A stretch of DNA of 6,621 nt from a virus. Its lineage: Duplodnaviria; Heunggongvirae; Uroviricota; Caudoviricetes. The notes under the pieces were generated by a model. It had not been told where the DNA came from. It worked only from the letters and a program-made list of their open reading frames with translations, and did no database searches. The first letter of the stretch is position 1, and each line of letters starts with the position of its first letter. A program made the position numbers and the translations under genes. Below, piece after piece: positions 1,730 through 6,621 of the stretch. The stretch lies in the IMG/VR virus record IMGVR_UViG_3300007747_000100; one strand, given 5' to 3'.

Positions 1730-2358
1730 GTGGCAGCCTCCTTCAGATAGCAGGTTACGCTACCACCGGAAACGCCAATTTCGCTGGTGGTAGCCCAGAC
1801 AGGGTTGGCGTAACCGGCTCTGAAGGATACCGGCGCTTCCGAAGAAGCCCCCGCCTGAGCCACCATTGATTGACAAAGGCGCTGGATTATACACCAACGC
1901 CCAAAAAATGGGTGAGTCAGACCTACGACATAAAAAAAGACGCTCGGCGCGTCATATGTCGCCTTCAGAATTTTCAGGACGCCAATCCCGGCACCCGTTT
2001 TATGAGGTGCCTTATAACCATAAACCGTGTTGCCGCATAACGGCAAGCTCTTTTTTATGGACTCCGAAAACTCACTATTGGAAGTAACGTCACGCGCGTG
2101 GACGAAGGTTTTTGTGGAGTCACTACACGAGCAGAGAAAGCCATCTACGACCAGAAATTCTCTGGCATAGCCGCTGACCTTCTCAACGCTAACACCATCG
2201 ACCGTAATTTCTGACATAGTTAAGGCATCCGCTCCTACCACCAGCAAATGATAAACTTTGCTTGTATCTGCTGTATTAATGTCTGACTTTGCTGTCATAT
2301 TGCTGGATTTTGGCGACATACCAGCCAGTGAAAATGTCTTCTTCTGGACGGGTATCAT
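1730..2358 (-). CDS. hypothetical protein, 5' portion of the 344-aa track ORF; 3' end unresolved (possible frameshift/pseudogene or genuine overlap)
   Basis: ATG 2358..2356 overlaps the stop of the 59-aa ORF (ATGA), GGAGG with 7-nt spacer upstream. The frame stays open to 1324, but downstream of about 1730 the evidence favours two separate small genes. The other two minus frames have stops at 1765..1763 and 1757..1755, just upstream of the next gene's RBS. Contains terminator-like hairpins on both strands. Confidence 0.35.
1932..1953 (-). terminator. terminator-like hairpin plus T-run on the minus strand, inside the long ORF
   Basis: On the minus strand: GACGC / GCGTC stem (1939-1953 in plus coordinates) with a 5-nt loop, followed by seven T (plus-strand A-run 1932-1938). 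The same bases encode ...[10 protein letters not shown] in the ORF frame. Confidence 0.3.
2030..2056 (+). terminator. terminator-like hairpin plus T-run on the plus strand, inside the long minus-strand ORF
   Basis: Stem TTGCCG (2030-2035) / CGGCAA (2041-2046), loop CATAA, then GCTC and TTTTTT (2051-2056). Confidence 0.35.
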
Positions 2359-3372: not shown

Positions 3373-3678
3373 TTAGGCGGCGTTAAACGCGTCCGGGTAG
3401 AGTTTCAGAATGTCGGCAATTTCCTGCTGAGAAAGTCCGTTGTGATCATTTATGTTCGCAAGATGGTTAACATGAGTGATCACTTTCAGAACATCACCAC
3501 GGCAGGAGAAACGGTAGCGAAGGTGTGTTCCGATACCATCAGGATTCTTTTCGTCGATACGCTCCAGAGTGATTCCAAGCTGGCGTTCTAACTCTGTTGC
3601 ATAGTTACGACCAGAAGACAGACGGCAGTAGCGAAGAATGTCATTTTCTGTCCATCCCTCTATACCAGTACGCAGCAT
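3373..3678 (-). CDS. hypothetical protein, 101 aa
   Basis: Track ORF; ATG 3678, weak AAGAG upstream; 12-nt gap to the next gene; same strand and operon context as alpA. No family recognised. Confidence 0.6.
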   Translation of the reverse strand: MLRTGIEGWTENDILRYCRLSSGRNYATELERQLGITLERIDEKNPDGIGTHLRYRFSCRGDVLKVITHVNHLANINDHNGLSQQEIADILKLYPDAFNAA

Positions 3679-3720: not shown

Positions 3721-3939
3721 TCAGGCCACCTTCCCGCGGCGTTCTGCCAGCCAGTTATTAATTTCCACCGCATCAAACGCAGTCACGTTATCTGTTAGCT
3801 TCACTGGGCGTGGAAGAGTGCCATTTTTAACCCATCTATCAATAGTAGGCAGTGAAACACCTAGCAATTCCGGCATGCGAAAGCGACGGATGTATCCAGT
3901 TGTTGGGATAGCTGATGATGCTGGCTTGTGTGCTGTCAT
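3721..3939 (-). CDS. alpA: AlpA/Vis-family phage transcriptional regulator / excisionase-like HTH protein, 72 aa (start uncertain)
   Basis: Segment RMPELLGVSLPTIDRWVKNGTLPRPVKL matches the characteristic AlpA-family helix-turn-helix pattern (recalled family knowledge, so the symbol is family-level). The ATG at 3939 has only a weak SD and the 5' end carries TGATAGCT-type motifs, so the true start could be further downstream (e.g. Met22). Confidence 0.75.
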   Translation of the reverse strand: MTAHKPASSAIPTTGYIRRFRMPELLGVSLPTIDRWVKNGTLPRPVKLTDNVTAFDAVEINNWLAERRGKVA

Positions 3940-3956
3940 ATCTCTAGTAACCTCTC

Positions 3957-3969
3957 TGATAGCTCATGA
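3957..3969 (+). repeat. 13-mer TGATAGCTCATGA, copy 1 (alpA leader / 5' end)
   Basis: Exact 13-bp match to 6435-6447; contains the recurrent oriented 8-mer TGATAGCT. Confidence 0.5.
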
Positions 3970-4020
3970 AGTTACTTAAAGTTTAGTGGTTGCCCATACA
4001 GTATTTCTATTAAGACTAGA

Positions 4021-4052
4021 ATCTATTGAAAGAAATTATAAATCTATTGAAA
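4021..4052. promoter_or_regulatory. operator-like direct repeats ATCTATTGAAA (x2, 21 bp apart) flanking a minus-strand TATAAT; candidate promoter/operator of the alpA operon
   Basis: ATCTATTGAAA at 4021-4031 and 4042-4052. Between them the minus strand reads TATAAT (plus coordinates 4035-4040). No convincing -35 found; the A/T-rich upstream could act as an UP element. About 95 nt upstream of the alpA ATG. Confidence 0.3.
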
Positions 4053-4230
4053 AAATACCGATCCACTGAAAGATTGCAAATACAGGTGGGATAATTATTT
4101 TCTTTATTTTCAATTAGTTACCAGTTTAAAAAATCATTGTTTTATCAAAGAGTTATATCTTTCATCGTCATTCATCATGTTTTTACATTTCTTTTTATCT
4201 TTTATTATTCAATTGGTTGAGTCGGTTTAT

Positions 4231-4270
4231 AATGGCTCATGATGGCTTAAAATGGCTAATGATAGCTGGC
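4231..4270 (+). repeat. four tandem 10-bp repeats (aATGGCTcat / gATGGCTtaa / aATGGCTaat / gATAGCTggc), helically phased
   Basis: Direct reading: core (A/G)AT(G/A)GCT begins at 4231, 4241, 4251 and 4261, exactly 10 bp apart, in the AT-rich region between the 216-aa gene and alpA. Confidence 0.6.
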
Positions 4271-4410
4271 GTATCTTTTAGAGATGGGGTGATTACAGAT
4301 GAACTAAGCCGAACAGATATAGCAATGGCTAGGCATAGAATTATCTATGCTGGTGGAGATGGGTAAACAGGTAATGCCCCGCCATTGCTTTGGAGGGGCG
4401 TGAAAAGTGA

Positions 4411-5061
4411 TTAGTCGAGATCGTGGACAGCTAATAAAGCCCGTGAGATTTTTTCTAGGAATGTGGCTTTTGCTATTCCTTTATGGGATATCCCTTCATC
4501 CTTGATTAAGGTTTCTATGTCACGGTATATAGCTGTGCGATTAGGTTTCCCATTTTGGATGTAGGAAGATGAGCCTGATTTTTTTATCAGCAGATGTACT
4601 ATCAACCCCATCATTTTCATTGTCCCGTTTTCCTCATCCTGCTTTCTATGCTGCCCACGTCCGCTGCGGTTGGTTTCTTTGATGTAGTTTACTAACTGGA
4701 GTCCTCCAAGGTTTCGGGCTTTTTCTTCCCAGCCCTTGGTGCCACGCAAATCATCAATCGCTTCTGATATTTTCTGAACAATTATTTCTGGTGTATTTGT
4801 GTCAATAAATGGGTAAGAAGCTAAGAAAATATCAAGGGCATGGCAAGGCTCGTCTTTACTAGTTTTTTCACCTCTGTACACCTTGATAGCTCTGGCAAGA
4901 TGAGTTCTGACAAAATCGACATATTCGAAATTTTCCTCAGGCACATCGCTAATGCGCATAGATGGGTTTAGGCCAGCCAAGGCCACAGCCATTTCATGAG
5001 GGGTAATCGATACAGATGAACAAAGCCGTTCGATTGGCGATTTTCTCAAGATGTTGTTCAC
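4411..5061 (-). CDS. hypothetical protein, 216 aa, unknown function; integrase-coupled accessory gene
   Basis: GTG start 5061..5059 overlaps the integrase stop (GTGA) and is preceded by GGAGG with a 5-nt spacer. Long open frame, and visibly more AT-rich than the integrase gene by eye. No conserved motif recognised (no Walker A, no clear transmembrane segment). Confidence 0.7.
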   Translation of the reverse strand: MNNILRKSPIERLCSSVSITPHEMAVALAGLNPSMRISDVPEENFEYVDFVRTHLARAIKVYRGEKTSKDEPCHALDIFLASYPFIDTNTPEIIVQKISEAIDDLRGTKGWEEKARNLGGLQLVNYIKETNRSGRGQHRKQDEENGTMKMMGLIVHLLIKKSGSSSYIQNGKPNRTAIYRDIETLIKDEGISHKGIAKATFLEKISRALLAVHDLD

Positions 5062-6326
5062 ATTTGCCTCCGGGCTTTATCGAATGGCGTTACGTTGTAG
5101 TCTTTCCCGCTTTCCAGTGCCACCAGCAGATCAGCCCACTGTGCCAGCGCAGCTTTACGCTCATCAAAATACTGATGGCGGTTATAAATCCCCTCCACAC
5201 CCTTAATGCGATGATTGAGGCATCGTTCCGCTACGACAGGATCAACACCCAATGCTGCTAAATGAGTACGTGCGGTACGCCGGAAGTCGTGAATCGTGAA
5301 ATTAGGCACATCCGGCATTTCGGCGCGAACCTTAGCCAGTGCTACGGGTAAAGTGCTTTCCTGAATATGTGGGATCATTCTGTTTTGCATCTTCCTGGCT
5401 GGAAGCACCCATGCGCTATTACATGAAAAGGTGTGTAGCTCTCTCAACCATTCAACGGCTGGGGAAGGTAGAGGTATATCAATAGGGTCTCCGTTTTTGC
5501 TGCGTTCTTCCGGCAAATGCCATACCGCACCATCTAAATCAAACTCTTCCCATCGTGCGGCGCATAACTCCATCTTACGAACGCATAGTGCCAGCAATAG
5601 CTTAAATGTCAGTTCGTTCTGGCGGCTGAATCCTTTTGCGGTGCGCATAGCCTCGAATAGCCTGATAAGCTCATCGCGAGTTAGCCAACGGTCGCGGGAA
5701 ACCTCTTTACCACCAGCATCAGATACTTCAAACGCTGAACAAGGGTTTATCTCCAGAGCGTGGCGTTTTATCCCATAGTCAAAGATACGGCGTGCCCAGC
5801 GTAATACATCTGTTGCTATCGTTGGTGCTCCTCGGTCAACGATACCTTTCAACATGTCGTCAATGTGGCGTGGCTTAACGTCCTCTACCTTCATATGCCC
5901 AATGCAGGGGTTAATATCCTTATCAATTCTCCGGCGAAGGATATCGGGATGTTTCCATCTCGGAAGTATCTGGCGCTCGAAGTATTCGGAGGCCAGATCT
6001 GAAACACGCATGGCGTTTTTCTCAGCCTCCATTTTTGCCAGTGCTTCAGCTTTTCGTTCCTGTTTCTCTGCTGCTACGTCATAGCCAAGAGCAACTCTGG
6101 CTGACAGCTCTTTTGCTGTTTCTCTGGCTTTTGATAGTGACAGTTCGGAGTAAGAGCCTATAACCATAGCCCGCTGCTTTCCTGCGAGCTTATAGCGGAA
6201 TCGCCAGAACGGGACTGTGTAGTTTTTGGGGTAGCAAATATAAAGGCCGTTGCCGTCTGCCTTGCCATCAAATCTGTCTCCCGCCTTTATCCATGCGCGG
6301 ATCTGCATATCTGTGAGTTTTGGCAT
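5058..6326 (-). CDS. int: tyrosine site-specific integrase, P4-like family (about 422 aa)
   Basis: N-terminus MPKLTDMQIRAWIKAG...DGNGLYI matches the arm-binding N-terminal domain typical of P4-type integrases. The C-terminal region has the tyrosine-recombinase hallmarks (HDFRRTARTH; GIYNRHQY with the presumed catalytic Tyr). Start trimmed from the track's 6410 to the ATG at 6326..6324. Confidence 0.9.
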   Translation of the reverse strand: MPKLTDMQIRAWIKAGDRFDGKADGNGLYICYPKNYTVPFWRFRYKLAGKQRAMVIGSYSELSLSKARETAKELSARVALGYDVAAEKQERKAEALAKMEAEKNAMRVSDLASEYFERQILPRWKHPDILRRRIDKDINPCIGHMKVEDVKPRHIDDMLKGIVDRGAPTIATDVLRWARRIFDYGIKRHALEINPCSAFEVSDAGGKEVSRDRWLTRDELIRLFEAMRTAKGFSRQNELTFKLLLALCVRKMELCAARWEEFDLDGAVWHLPEERSKNGDPIDIPLPSPAVEWLRELHTFSCNSAWVLPARKMQNRMIPHIQESTLPVALAKVRAEMPDVPNFTIHDFRRTARTHLAALGVDPVVAERCLNHRIKGVEGIYNRHQYFDERKAALAQWADLLVALESGKDYNVTPFDKARRQM

Positions 6327-6355: not shown

Positions 6356-6405
6356 TGTACATAAAGCAATGTACATGAAAGTCATTATGTACACCTCTAT
6401 GTACA
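6356..6405. promoter_or_regulatory. four TGTACA hexamers immediately upstream of the integrase start (candidate regulator or arm-type binding sites)
   Basis: TGTACA at 6356-6361, 6370-6375, 6388-6393 and 6400-6405, mostly in the context ATGTACA(C/T), within 80 bp upstream of the int ATG at 6326. Confidence 0.45.
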
Positions 6406-6434: not shown

Positions 6435-6447
6435 TGATAGCTCATGA
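6435..6447 (+). repeat. 13-mer TGATAGCTCATGA, copy 2 (between the int upstream region and the junction terminator); candidate att or arm-type site
   Basis: Exact 13-bp direct repeat of 3957-3969. A further TGATAGCT lies at 6508-6515, overlapping the stop codon of the flanking gene. Confidence 0.45.
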
Positions 6448-6488: not shown

Positions 6489-6514
6489 GCTGCTTGGTGA
6501 TTTTTACTGATAGC

Positions 6515-6621
6515 TTATTCGATATTCTGAATCTGCTCGCGCATCTGCTCAATCAACACTTTCAGCTCGATGGCAGAATTCGTCACTTCGGCATTGATAG
6601 ATTTCGAAGCAAGAGTGTTCG
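6515..6621 (-). CDS. 3' end of an unidentified, presumably chromosomal gene (partial)
   Basis: Minus-strand frame open from the window edge to TAA at 6517..6515 (C-terminus ...INAEVTNSAIELKVLIEQMREQIQNIE), followed downstream by the hairpin terminator. Product not recognised. Confidence 0.5.
   Translation of the reverse strand, partial: NTLASKSINAEVTNSAIELKVLIEQMREQIQNIE

What the first reader, a model, noticed from the sequence alone, without database searches (positions are those of the whole stretch)
4231..4270. Helically phased array of four 10-bp direct repeats in the AT-rich region upstream of alpA
Units aATGGCTcat, gATGGCTtaa, aATGGCTaat and gATAGCTggc start at 4231, 4241, 4251 and 4261, exactly one helical turn apart, so all four cores face the same side of the DNA. 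A fifth ATGGCT lies at 4325-4330. Such phasing is typical of cooperative binding sites (iterons, arm-type sites, activator arrays). The last unit is the TGATAGCT 8-mer.
Basis: seen in the sequence. Interest (0 to 1): 0.55.

Follow-up and report, generated by a model that had tools for sequence, protein, structure and literature searches.

The report
Phased excisionase-type binding array upstream of alpA
Four short DNA repeats spaced exactly one helical turn apart in a phage-satellite island of E. coli are real and most likely form a cooperative docking site for the island's small excisionase/regulator AlpA (or a related phage protein), a known kind of control element that has not been described for this class of islands.

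Summary
ATGGCT starts at 4232, 4242 and 4252 and ATAGCT at 4262; no shuffle reproduced this. The array is the clearest part of a ~135-bp domain (4148-4283) with 10-bp periodicity.

The window is a Gram-negative PICI/P4-like satellite inserted at the 3' end of yicC: int, orf216, a 470-bp spacer, alpA, an antirepressor, then a C4/isrK-like RNA.

All 11 intergenic sequences read from orf216-carrying relatives keep a 10-bp register (z 5-9). The repeated words drift; only the two closest relatives keep this word, in phase.

It is not an origin iteron set. The PICI-type ori lies 3' of the primase, with unrelated iterons. It is not an arm-type site either; those are TGTACA.

The unit (TRAGCYATYA) recurs, same strand only, at the att junction (6508-6515, 6435-6442) and in the alpA leader (3957-3964). 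That is the site layout of excisionase-regulators such as Apl, Cox, TorI and P4 Vis.

Best reading (about 0.45): an AlpA-family operator array. Rivals are a helper-phage excisionase sensor, an ORF216 operator, or bent DNA. Binding is untested. One island with the identical AlpA lacks the array.

The parts
4231..4270 (-). Four 10-bp units. Read in the alpA sense they are CCAGCTATCA TTAGCCATTT TAAGCCATCA TGAGCCATTA, that is, 8-bp boxes AGCYATYW separated by 2 nt.
4148..4283 (.). Whole helically phased domain: at least 50% self-match at lag 10 in 40-nt windows.
4154..4203 (-). Second phased sub-array, A-rich: AAAGATAAAA AGAAATGTAA AAACATGATG AATGACGATG AAAGATATAA. A similar AAAGAT/AAACAT run is seen in most of the relatives read (L002, L003, L004, L009, L010, L015).
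4287..4316 (-). Degenerate GTTC-type phased words: CTGTTCGGCT TAGTTCATCT GTAATCACCC. These are clearer in relatives, for example L002 CAGTTCACCC AAGTTCATAC CAATTCACCC CGGTTCACTT.
3957..3964 (-). Single copy of the box (AGCTATCA in the alpA sense) in the alpA leader, just 5' of the Shine-Dalgarno sequence. It is invariant in 9 of 9 islands of AlpA group 1.
6508..6515 (-). Copy of the box that abuts the yicC stop codon and the island junction. It is island DNA and is absent from empty sites.
6435..6442 (-). Second att-proximal copy of the box, inside GTTATCATGAGCTATCATAAC, between the core and the arm-type sites.
6356..6405 (-). Four TGTACA words upstream of int. The same word occurs twice on the far arm of the island, so these are the likely integrase arm-type sites.
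3721..3939 (-). alpA: a 72-aa AlpA-family excisionase/regulator and the candidate reader of the boxes.
4411..5061 (-). orf216, of unknown function, overlapping the end of int. In the islands examined the phased spacer occurs only together with this gene.
4020..4052 (-). Two conserved boxes TTTCAATAGATT (+ strand 4020-4031 and 4041-4052, 21 bp apart). Next to them lies a -10-like TAGAAA(T) at 4003-4009. This is the putative alpA promoter region.
   Evidence: reading of the sequence; no promoter mapping
4376..4399 (-). Hairpin directly after the orf216 stop codon. Every relative has a hairpin at this place, each with a different sequence.

Best explanation
The four units are an operator array of the type used by recombination-directionality factors that double as transcription regulators (lambda Xis, P2 Cox, 186 Apl, KplE1 TorI, P4 Vis). 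One small winged-helix monomer would bind each 8-bp box. The boxes sit as direct repeats one helical turn apart. Binding would be cooperative and would bend the DNA. The most likely reader is the island's own AlpA, encoded about 290 bp downstream. AlpA would use the same box next to the recombination core, where it directs excision, and in its own leader and upstream region, where it autoregulates. What is shown: the repeat, its phasing, the family-wide 10-bp register, the recurrence of the box at the att junction and in the alpA leader, and the exclusion of ori iterons and arm-type sites. What is inferred: that AlpA is the binder, and the sign of the effect. Positive autoregulation is favoured only because it was reported for other Gram-negative PICIs.
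For: (1) Geometry. The array is four direct repeats at exactly 10 bp, that is, 8-bp boxes separated by 2 nt. TorI sites I3-I5 have the same layout. It also matches the rule stated for Apl and other RDFs: direct repeats one turn apart, at least three adjacent sites, weak single-site specificity, and cox-boxes spaced 10-11 bp. (2) The adjacent gene encodes an AlpA/excisionase-family protein. (3) A weight matrix built only from the four units scores at least 11 bits at just three other places in the 6.6-kb window: 6508-6517, 6435-6444 and 3957-3966. All are on the same strand; 3 were observed against 0.42 expected, P about 0.01. TGATAGCT occurs exactly five times, all on one strand. (4) These positions fit an RDF. 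The first lies at the junction, next to the crossover inferred near GAATAA at the yicC stop. The second lies between the core and the TGTACA arm-type sites. The third lies in the alpA leader and is invariant in 9 of 9 group-1 islands. In relative L020 the junction box is TAAGCCATCA, identical to array unit 3. (5) The same word in the same phase is kept in the two closest relatives: L015 has 4 units in phase and L002 has 3. (6) In P4 the spacer upstream of the AlpA homologue vis also holds three contiguous 10-bp repeats, and it was the only control region with 10-bp periodicity, z=3.1. [quoted passage not shown]
Against: No binding data exist. The DNA-binding core of AlpA is almost invariant in window, L002, L003, L004, L019 and L018, yet L004, L006, L007 and L009 carry other words at this place. 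L049 encodes the identical AlpA protein (WP_001363069.1) but has no array at all. The junction box sits where an integrase core-type site (C') would be, so its link to AlpA is not exclusive. The array lies about 220-260 bp upstream of the -10-like element of the putative alpA promoter, which is far for a simple activator. The single lineage with a diverged AlpA (L010/L012/L014/L021) lacks the leader box and this word, but it gives only one independent contrast, and its own array words do not recur at its att site.
Confidence: 0.45

Rival explanations
1. The array is a helper-phage sensor. It, and the other phased word sets beside it, would be docking sites for an excisionase or Cox-like protein made by an induced helper prophage. 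That protein would switch on alpA, just as P2 Cox binds the cox-boxes upstream of P4 P_LL.
For: P4 has three contiguous 10-bp 'type 2' repeats upstream of vis, and P2 Cox binds upstream of P_LL to derepress P4. The inducer of Gram-negative PICIs is stated to be unidentified, and the EcCIMP1 alpA upstream region responds to the helper. Words differ between relatives that share the same AlpA, as expected if they track different helpers. TorI-box-like words (CAGTTCGC, TAGTTCGT, TGGTTCGT) occur in relatives with 9 sense hits against 1 antisense hit.
Against: The window has no TorI-matrix hit. The array was not found in 50,697 phage records or in viral contigs other than copies of the island itself. 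EcCIMP1, the one experimentally helper-induced relative examined, has no phased array in its int-alpA spacer. The word equals the island's own att and leader box.
Confidence: 0.17
2. The array is an operator for ORF216. The unknown protein encoded just upstream would bind the phased repeats and repress alpA, acting as a master-repressor-like module.
For: The phased spacer was found in 11 of 11 intergenic sequences read from orf216-carrying loci. It was absent from 5 of 5 islands without orf216, including one with the identical AlpA. orf216 overlaps the end of int and sits where Gram-positive PICIs place their repressor.
Confidence: 0.13
3. There is no sequence-specific reader. The region would be anisotropically bendable or curved DNA, with AT-rich and GC-rich half-turns alternating. 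It could be kept for nucleoid-protein silencing or promoter architecture, or produced by repeated 10- or 20-bp slippage duplications.
For: Neighbouring units are alike while distant ones differ, and the words drift along a continuous 130-250 bp register in every relative. TRF finds a 20-bp super-repeat. The region is AT-rich, 24-29% GC, and carries phased A-tracts at 4154-4203.
Against: The word recurs on the same strand at the att junction and in the alpA leader. The core is conserved across Salmonella and E. coli copies while the 4-nt spacers vary.
Confidence: 0.15
4. The array is a set of replication-origin iterons bound by the island primase/initiator, like P4 type I iterons or the PICI ori.
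For: The P4 ori lies upstream of vis and has 10-bp phased iterons. GTTCAC(C) words resembling the P4 TGTTCACC iteron occur in the same spacer of relatives.
Against: A canonical ori, with two iteron sets around an AT-rich spacer, lies 3' of the primase in all five relatives examined, and its words are unrelated: CCTGTACCA, GTTGGTTCA, CCCTAC, GGGATAAGT and GTTGCCTCA. L001 and L018 share the AGCCAT array but have DUF5906 versus DUF927 primases and different ori iterons. No second ATGGCT cluster exists in the island.
Confidence: 0.03
5. The repeat belongs to a small + strand gene (4217/4232-4366, 44-49 aa), in which ATGGCT would be Met-Ala codons.
For: An open frame starts inside the array, and a promoter-like site lies at 4226-4253.
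Against: A period of 10 is not a multiple of 3. The frame has no family hit. No homologous antisense ORF exists in any relative. The promoter scan found no more sites than the shuffles did.
Confidence: 0.02

Closest known systems
P4 'ori type 2 repeats' (the cox-boxes upstream of P_LL and vis)
   Same: Three contiguous 10-bp direct repeats lie in the spacer upstream of the AlpA-family gene of a satellite, in the same gene order: AlpA homologue, then a C4/CI-type RNA region, then the primase. That region also shows 10-bp periodicity. The repeats serve activation of the satellite by a phased-repeat-binding excisionase.
   Different: The word differs: TTAAAG/CNCA against AGCYATYA. The P4 repeats lie inside the annotated ori, whereas here the ori is 3' of the primase. 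The P4 binder is the helper's Cox; here the binder is unknown.
Coliphage 186 Apl operators (7 at pR-pL, 5 at attP)
   Same: Short boxes arranged as direct repeats 10-11 bp apart, used both at att and at the regulator's own operon, with the regulator as the first gene of that operon. At least 3 adjacent sites are needed, and specificity is low.
   Different: Apl is an outlier in sequence and not of the AlpA family. Its operators lie between two face-to-face promoters. Here the array lies about 290 bp upstream of the gene.
KplE1/HK620 TorI sites I3-I5 in attL
   Same: TorI and the window's AlpA are both small excisionase-type DNA-binding proteins; their relatedness was not tested here (in the EcCIMP1 paper, excisionases resembling the TorI-identical Kapi1 Xis are annotated as AlpA family). 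The TorI sites are 8-bp sites separated by 2 nt, lying between the core and the arm-type sites and overlapping int regulation.
   Different: The box is YRGWTCGY, not AGCYATYA, and a TorI matrix gives no hit in the window. The TorI array is at att, not upstream of the RDF gene.
Gram-negative PICI alpA control region (EcCICFT073, EcCIMP1)
   Same: The element type and gene order are the same. AlpA autoactivates and is needed for excision, and the upstream region is helper-inducible.
   Different: No binding sites have been described. The EcCIMP1 int-alpA spacer has no 10-bp periodicity and no orf216.

Membership tests
RDF/excisionase-regulator operator array (Xis, Cox, Apl, TorI, Vis type) | At least three direct repeats spaced about one helical turn (10-11 bp) apart | tested here: met
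   Four units lie at exactly 10 bp spacing, and 0 of 200 shuffles reproduced the pattern.
RDF/excisionase-regulator operator array (Xis, Cox, Apl, TorI, Vis type) | A small winged-helix or HTH RDF gene in the same element, typically the first gene of the regulated operon | tested here: met
   The alpA product matches Pfam Phage_AlpA, TIGR01764 excisionase, PHROG 66 and PDB 8c3t 'AlpA family'.
RDF/excisionase-regulator operator array (Xis, Cox, Apl, TorI, Vis type) | Boxes of similar sequence next to the recombination core in att | tested here: inconclusive
   The box is present at 6508-6515 and 6435-6442, on the same strand, between the core and the TGTACA arm sites. The junction copy could instead be an integrase core-type site.
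RDF/excisionase-regulator operator array (Xis, Cox, Apl, TorI, Vis type) | The box is kept wherever the same RDF is kept | tested here: inconclusive
   The leader and junction boxes are kept in all group-1 islands. The phased array keeps this word only in L015 and L002, and it is absent from L049, which has the identical AlpA.
RDF/excisionase-regulator operator array (Xis, Cox, Apl, TorI, Vis type) | Cooperative binding and DNA bending by the protein | not testable with these tools
   This needs EMSA or footprinting.
Replication-origin iterons (P4 type I, PICI ori) | Two iteron sets flanking an AT-rich spacer next to the initiator gene, with the word specific to the initiator | tested here: not met
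   Such an ori lies 3' of the primase and uses other words. L001 and L018 share the array but differ in primase family and ori iterons.
Integrase arm-type sites | The same word on both arms of attP, read by the Arm-DNA-binding domain | tested here: not met
   The word found on both arms is TGTACA. The ATGGCT array is more than 2 kb from the core.
P2 Cox boxes | Consensus TTAAA(G/C)NC(A/C) | tested here: not met
   The units read AGCYATYA.
TorI boxes | Match to KplE1 sites I1-I5 (YRGWTCGY) | tested here: not met
   No hit of at least 6.5 bits in the window spacer on either strand.

The most novel reading that the evidence does not exclude
The whole 130-250 bp helically phased spacer, in which successive sets of 2-6 units carry different words, could be a composite landing pad. 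Several excisionase-type proteins, the island's AlpA and those of different helper prophages, would each find their own phased boxes there. A helper excisionase made at prophage induction would then be the long-sought inducer of this class of Gram-negative PICIs, and word turnover between relatives would record helper switching.
Probability: 0.12. Interest if true: 0.75.

Novelty: new member of a known kind. Interest (0 to 1): 0.4.

Why it matters
In Gram-negative phage-inducible islands AlpA is the master switch. Neither its DNA sites nor the helper signal that turns it on has been described in the papers I could search. This locus offers a concrete candidate AlpA box, TRAGCYATYA. The box occurs in three functionally sensible places: the att junction, a four-unit phased array, and the alpA leader. 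The locus also offers a compact fragment (4140-4330) on which binding, cooperativity and helper induction can be tested directly. If the array turns out to bind a helper protein instead, it would identify the induction route of these satellites.

Tried and rejected
**Origin iterons.** Rejected after the canonical ori was found 3' of the primase in five relatives and no second ATGGCT cluster was found in the island.

**Integrase arm-type sites.** Rejected because TGTACA is the word on both arms.

**Coding repeat or small ORF.** Rejected.

**Known RNA family.** Rfam gave nothing at 4100-4330. Its only confident hits are the C4 and isrK models at 1783-2010.

**Promoter and terminator scan.** Not informative: 3 sites found against 3.5 expected.

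**Search for the array in phages.**
- The exact phased pattern in IMG/VR returned only two copies of this island, plus unrelated tandem 10-mers.
- blastn against 50,697 phage records gave only chance AT-rich hits.

**ORF216 function.**
- No family hit or PDB relative was found.
- The afdb50 fold library was unavailable.

**SD-sequestering hairpin around the leader box.** RNAalifold predicts 7 pairs with no covariation and -1.7 kcal/mol, so it is unsupported.

**TorI-box hypothesis for the window.** No hit.

**Covariation test using the diverged-AlpA lineage.** It gives only one independent contrast, and its array words do not recur at its att site.

**Search caps.** A large covariation set could therefore not be built.

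Full report
**1. The observation**

The sequence at 4231-4270 reads aATGGCTcat gATGGCTtaa aATGGCTaat gATAGCTggc. ATGGCT starts at 4232, 4242 and 4252, and again at 4325. The phased pattern occurs once, and none of 200 dinucleotide-preserving shuffles gave a match even with two mismatches allowed.

Tandem Repeats Finder reports period 10. It also reports a better period 20 (85% matches), so the array is two 20-bp units of two sub-units each. The fifth ATGGCT lies 93 bp from the first and is out of register. The last unit contains TGATAGCT, one of five exact copies in the window, all on the + strand.

**2. Context**

All genes in the window run on the minus strand:
- int, 5058-6326, with Arm-DNA-bind_3 and Phage_integrase domains;
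- orf216, 4411-5061, with no family hit;
- a 470-bp spacer;
- alpA, 3721-3939, matching Phage_AlpA and the excisionase family;
- a small ORF;
- an AntA/AntB antirepressor;
- a DUF4222 protein;
- a region matching the Rfam C4 antisense RNA and isrK models, 1783-2010.

Identical spacers occur in about 110 complete E. coli genomes. There the island sits at the 3' end of yicC and continues with a primase and P22-type ejection-protein genes. This is the Integration / Bro-immunity-RNA / Replication / Late layout described for Gram-negative PICIs, and it resembles EcCIMP1.

**3. The array is part of a larger, family-wide phased domain**

In the window, lags 10, 20 and 30 are the three best self-match lags of the spacer. 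The domain with at least 50% lag-10 identity spans 4148-4283. Read in the alpA sense it holds three word sets in turn:
- degenerate GTTC words (4287-4316);
- the AGCYAT array;
- an A-rich AAAGAT/AAACAT run (4154-4203).

I collected the orf216-alpA spacer from 10 further loci. They come from Salmonella, Klebsiella, Buttiauxella, other E. coli and metagenomes, with ORF216 63-89% identical. Every one shows the same property, with z of 5.0 to 9.2 against dinucleotide shuffles. Stacked in rows of 10, each shows a continuous register over 130-250 bp. Neighbouring rows share 5-9 of 10 bases, while the word changes along the run and between relatives.

Twelve control regions have |z| below 2.1. These are other spacers of the same islands, coding DNA, the EcCIMP1 int-alpA spacer, the PICI ori and the P4 crr. 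The only other positive region is the P4 spacer upstream of vis, with z=3.1 and top lag 10.

**4. What it is not**

*Not ori iterons.* In all five relatives examined, the region 3' of the primase holds two sets of iterons around an AT-rich spacer, as published for Gram-negative PICIs. Their words are unrelated to the array. L001 has a spacer identical to the window and L018 (Salmonella) has the same AGCCAT word. Yet they carry DUF5906 and DUF927 primases respectively, with different ori iterons.

*Not arm-type sites.* Comparison with empty sites puts the crossover at about GAATAA at the yicC stop codon. The word found on both arms of the reconstructed attP is TGTACA: four copies at 6356-6405 and two on the far arm.

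*Not coding.* The + strand ORF that begins in the array has no homologue in any relative.

**5. What the word is related to**

A weight matrix made only from the four units scores at least 11 bits at just three other places in the window, all in the alpA sense:
- TAAGCTATCA at the island junction (6508-6517);
- TGAGCTATCA at 6435-6444, between the core and the arm-type sites;
- TGAGCTATCA in the alpA leader (3957-3966).

That is 3 observed against 0.42 expected. In relatives the junction box is present whether the island sits at yicC or at der. In L020 it reads TAAGCCATCA, identical to array unit 3. The leader box AGCTATCA is invariant in nine islands while its flanks vary.

The matrix also recovers phased arrays in the two closest relatives: L015 has four units in one phase and L002 has three.

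**6. Comparison with known systems**

Excisionase-regulators bind direct repeats one helical turn apart. They need about three adjacent sites, discriminate weakly between specific and non-specific DNA, bend the DNA, and use similar boxes at att and at their own operon (on Apl). Cox-boxes are spaced 10-11 bp, and P2 Cox activates P4 by binding upstream of P_LL. TorI sites I3-I5 are 8-bp boxes separated by 2 nt, lying between the core and the arm-type sites.

The present array has the TorI geometry. It also has the P4 position: the P4 record annotates three contiguous 10-bp 'type 2' repeats upstream of vis. Its word, however, is its own. It matches neither the cox-box consensus nor a TorI matrix.

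**7. Who reads it**

*AlpA* is the simplest candidate. It belongs to the right protein family and is encoded next to the array. It is needed for excision and autoactivates in related PICIs. The box also occurs at att and in the alpA leader.

Three facts count against AlpA. Its DNA-binding core is nearly invariant among relatives whose arrays carry other words. L049 encodes the identical AlpA protein but has a different gene in place of orf216 and no phased spacer, although it keeps the junction and leader boxes. The junction box lies where an integrase core-type site would be.

*ORF216* is favoured by the presence/absence pattern: 11 of 11 spacers with it, 0 of 5 without. That pattern could equally reflect linkage of adjacent DNA. 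Nothing in its sequence or its mediocre model marks it as DNA-binding.

*A helper-phage excisionase*, by analogy with P2 Cox, would explain the word turnover and the TorI-like words in some relatives. Against it, the array is absent from known phage genomes, and EcCIMP1, the experimentally induced relative, lacks such a spacer.

I put AlpA-family operator array at about 0.45, helper sensor at 0.17, ORF216 operator at 0.13, structural or slippage DNA at 0.15, and the remainder small.

**8. Verdict**

Its kind, a helically phased operator array for a small cooperative DNA-binding protein, is well known. Its occurrence in this class of satellites, the candidate AlpA box and the family-wide drifting-word register are new details. 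They are of moderate interest and directly testable.

Noticed in passing
window 1783-1870 (-) and 1933-2010 (-): Confident Rfam hits to C4 antisense RNA (79.9 bits) and isrK (67.8 bits), plus a weak a1/b1 target hit. They lie inside what PGAP calls an 'ash family protein' ORF. This suggests a P1/P4-type RNA immunity module next to the antirepressor gene.
   Followed up: partly
L001 5709-5884 (-); L018 18295-18520; L019 17885-18240; L020 18815-19130; L021 18056-18450: A canonical PICI-type ori lies 3' of each primase: two sets of iterons around an AT-rich spacer. Each primase variant has its own word (CCTGTACCA/CCTATACCA, GTTGGTTCA, CCCTAC, GGGATAAGT, GTTGCCTCA).
   Followed up: yes
window 6356-6405 (-) and L056 about 3633-3655: TGTACA words lie on both arms of the reconstructed attP: four copies upstream of int and two on the far arm. 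They are likely integrase arm-type sites and overlap the presumed int promoter.
   Followed up: partly
window 4020-4031 and 4041-4052: Two copies of AATCTATTGAAA lie 21 bp apart (TTTCAATAGATT in the alpA sense). They are conserved in every orf216-type relative, 2-3 copies each, and are followed by a conserved TTTAATAGATTC-N10-T(A/G)GAAT-NN-CTGTA block. This is probably the alpA promoter with its proximal regulator sites.
   Followed up: partly
window 3950-3978 (-): An inverted repeat GTAACTTCA...AGGAGTTAC brackets the invariant AGCTATCA and includes the alpA Shine-Dalgarno sequence. RNAalifold predicts 7 pairs but finds no covariation, so an SD-sequestering hairpin is neither supported nor excluded.
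   Followed up: yes
window 4376-4399: A GC-rich hairpin lies directly after the orf216 stop codon. Every relative has a hairpin at this spot, each with a different sequence. None is followed by a clear U-tract.
   Followed up: no
window 4333-4350: A perfect 7-bp-arm palindrome, GCATAGA-ATTA-TCTATGC, overlaps the -10 of a promoter-like site on the minus strand (TTTACC-16-GATAAT, 4367-4340). It was not seen in the relatives.
   Followed up: no
L049 2741-2845 (-), L050-L052, L055 18858-19284: The slot between int and alpA is variable. It holds orf216 plus the phased spacer, or unrelated 282-321-aa ORFs with about 105-115-bp spacers, or no gene at all (EcCIMP1). L049 carries the identical AlpA protein next to a different module.
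   Followed up: partly
L002 (CACSKA010000004.1): The record title names Chryseobacterium sp., yet the locus encodes close relatives of the window's proteins (ORF216 83% identical, a near-identical AlpA) and the same int-orf216-alpA layout. This may be a mislabelled or contaminated assembly.
   Followed up: no
antisense of the alpA leader/promoter, e.g. L015 358-471, L004 472-576, L007 455-565 of the spacer: An antisense frame that starts at the rc of the AGCTATCA box (VIAGEV...IESIK...) stays open for 27-37 codons in most relatives. In the window it is broken by an in-frame TAA. It probably just reflects conserved DNA.
   Followed up: partly
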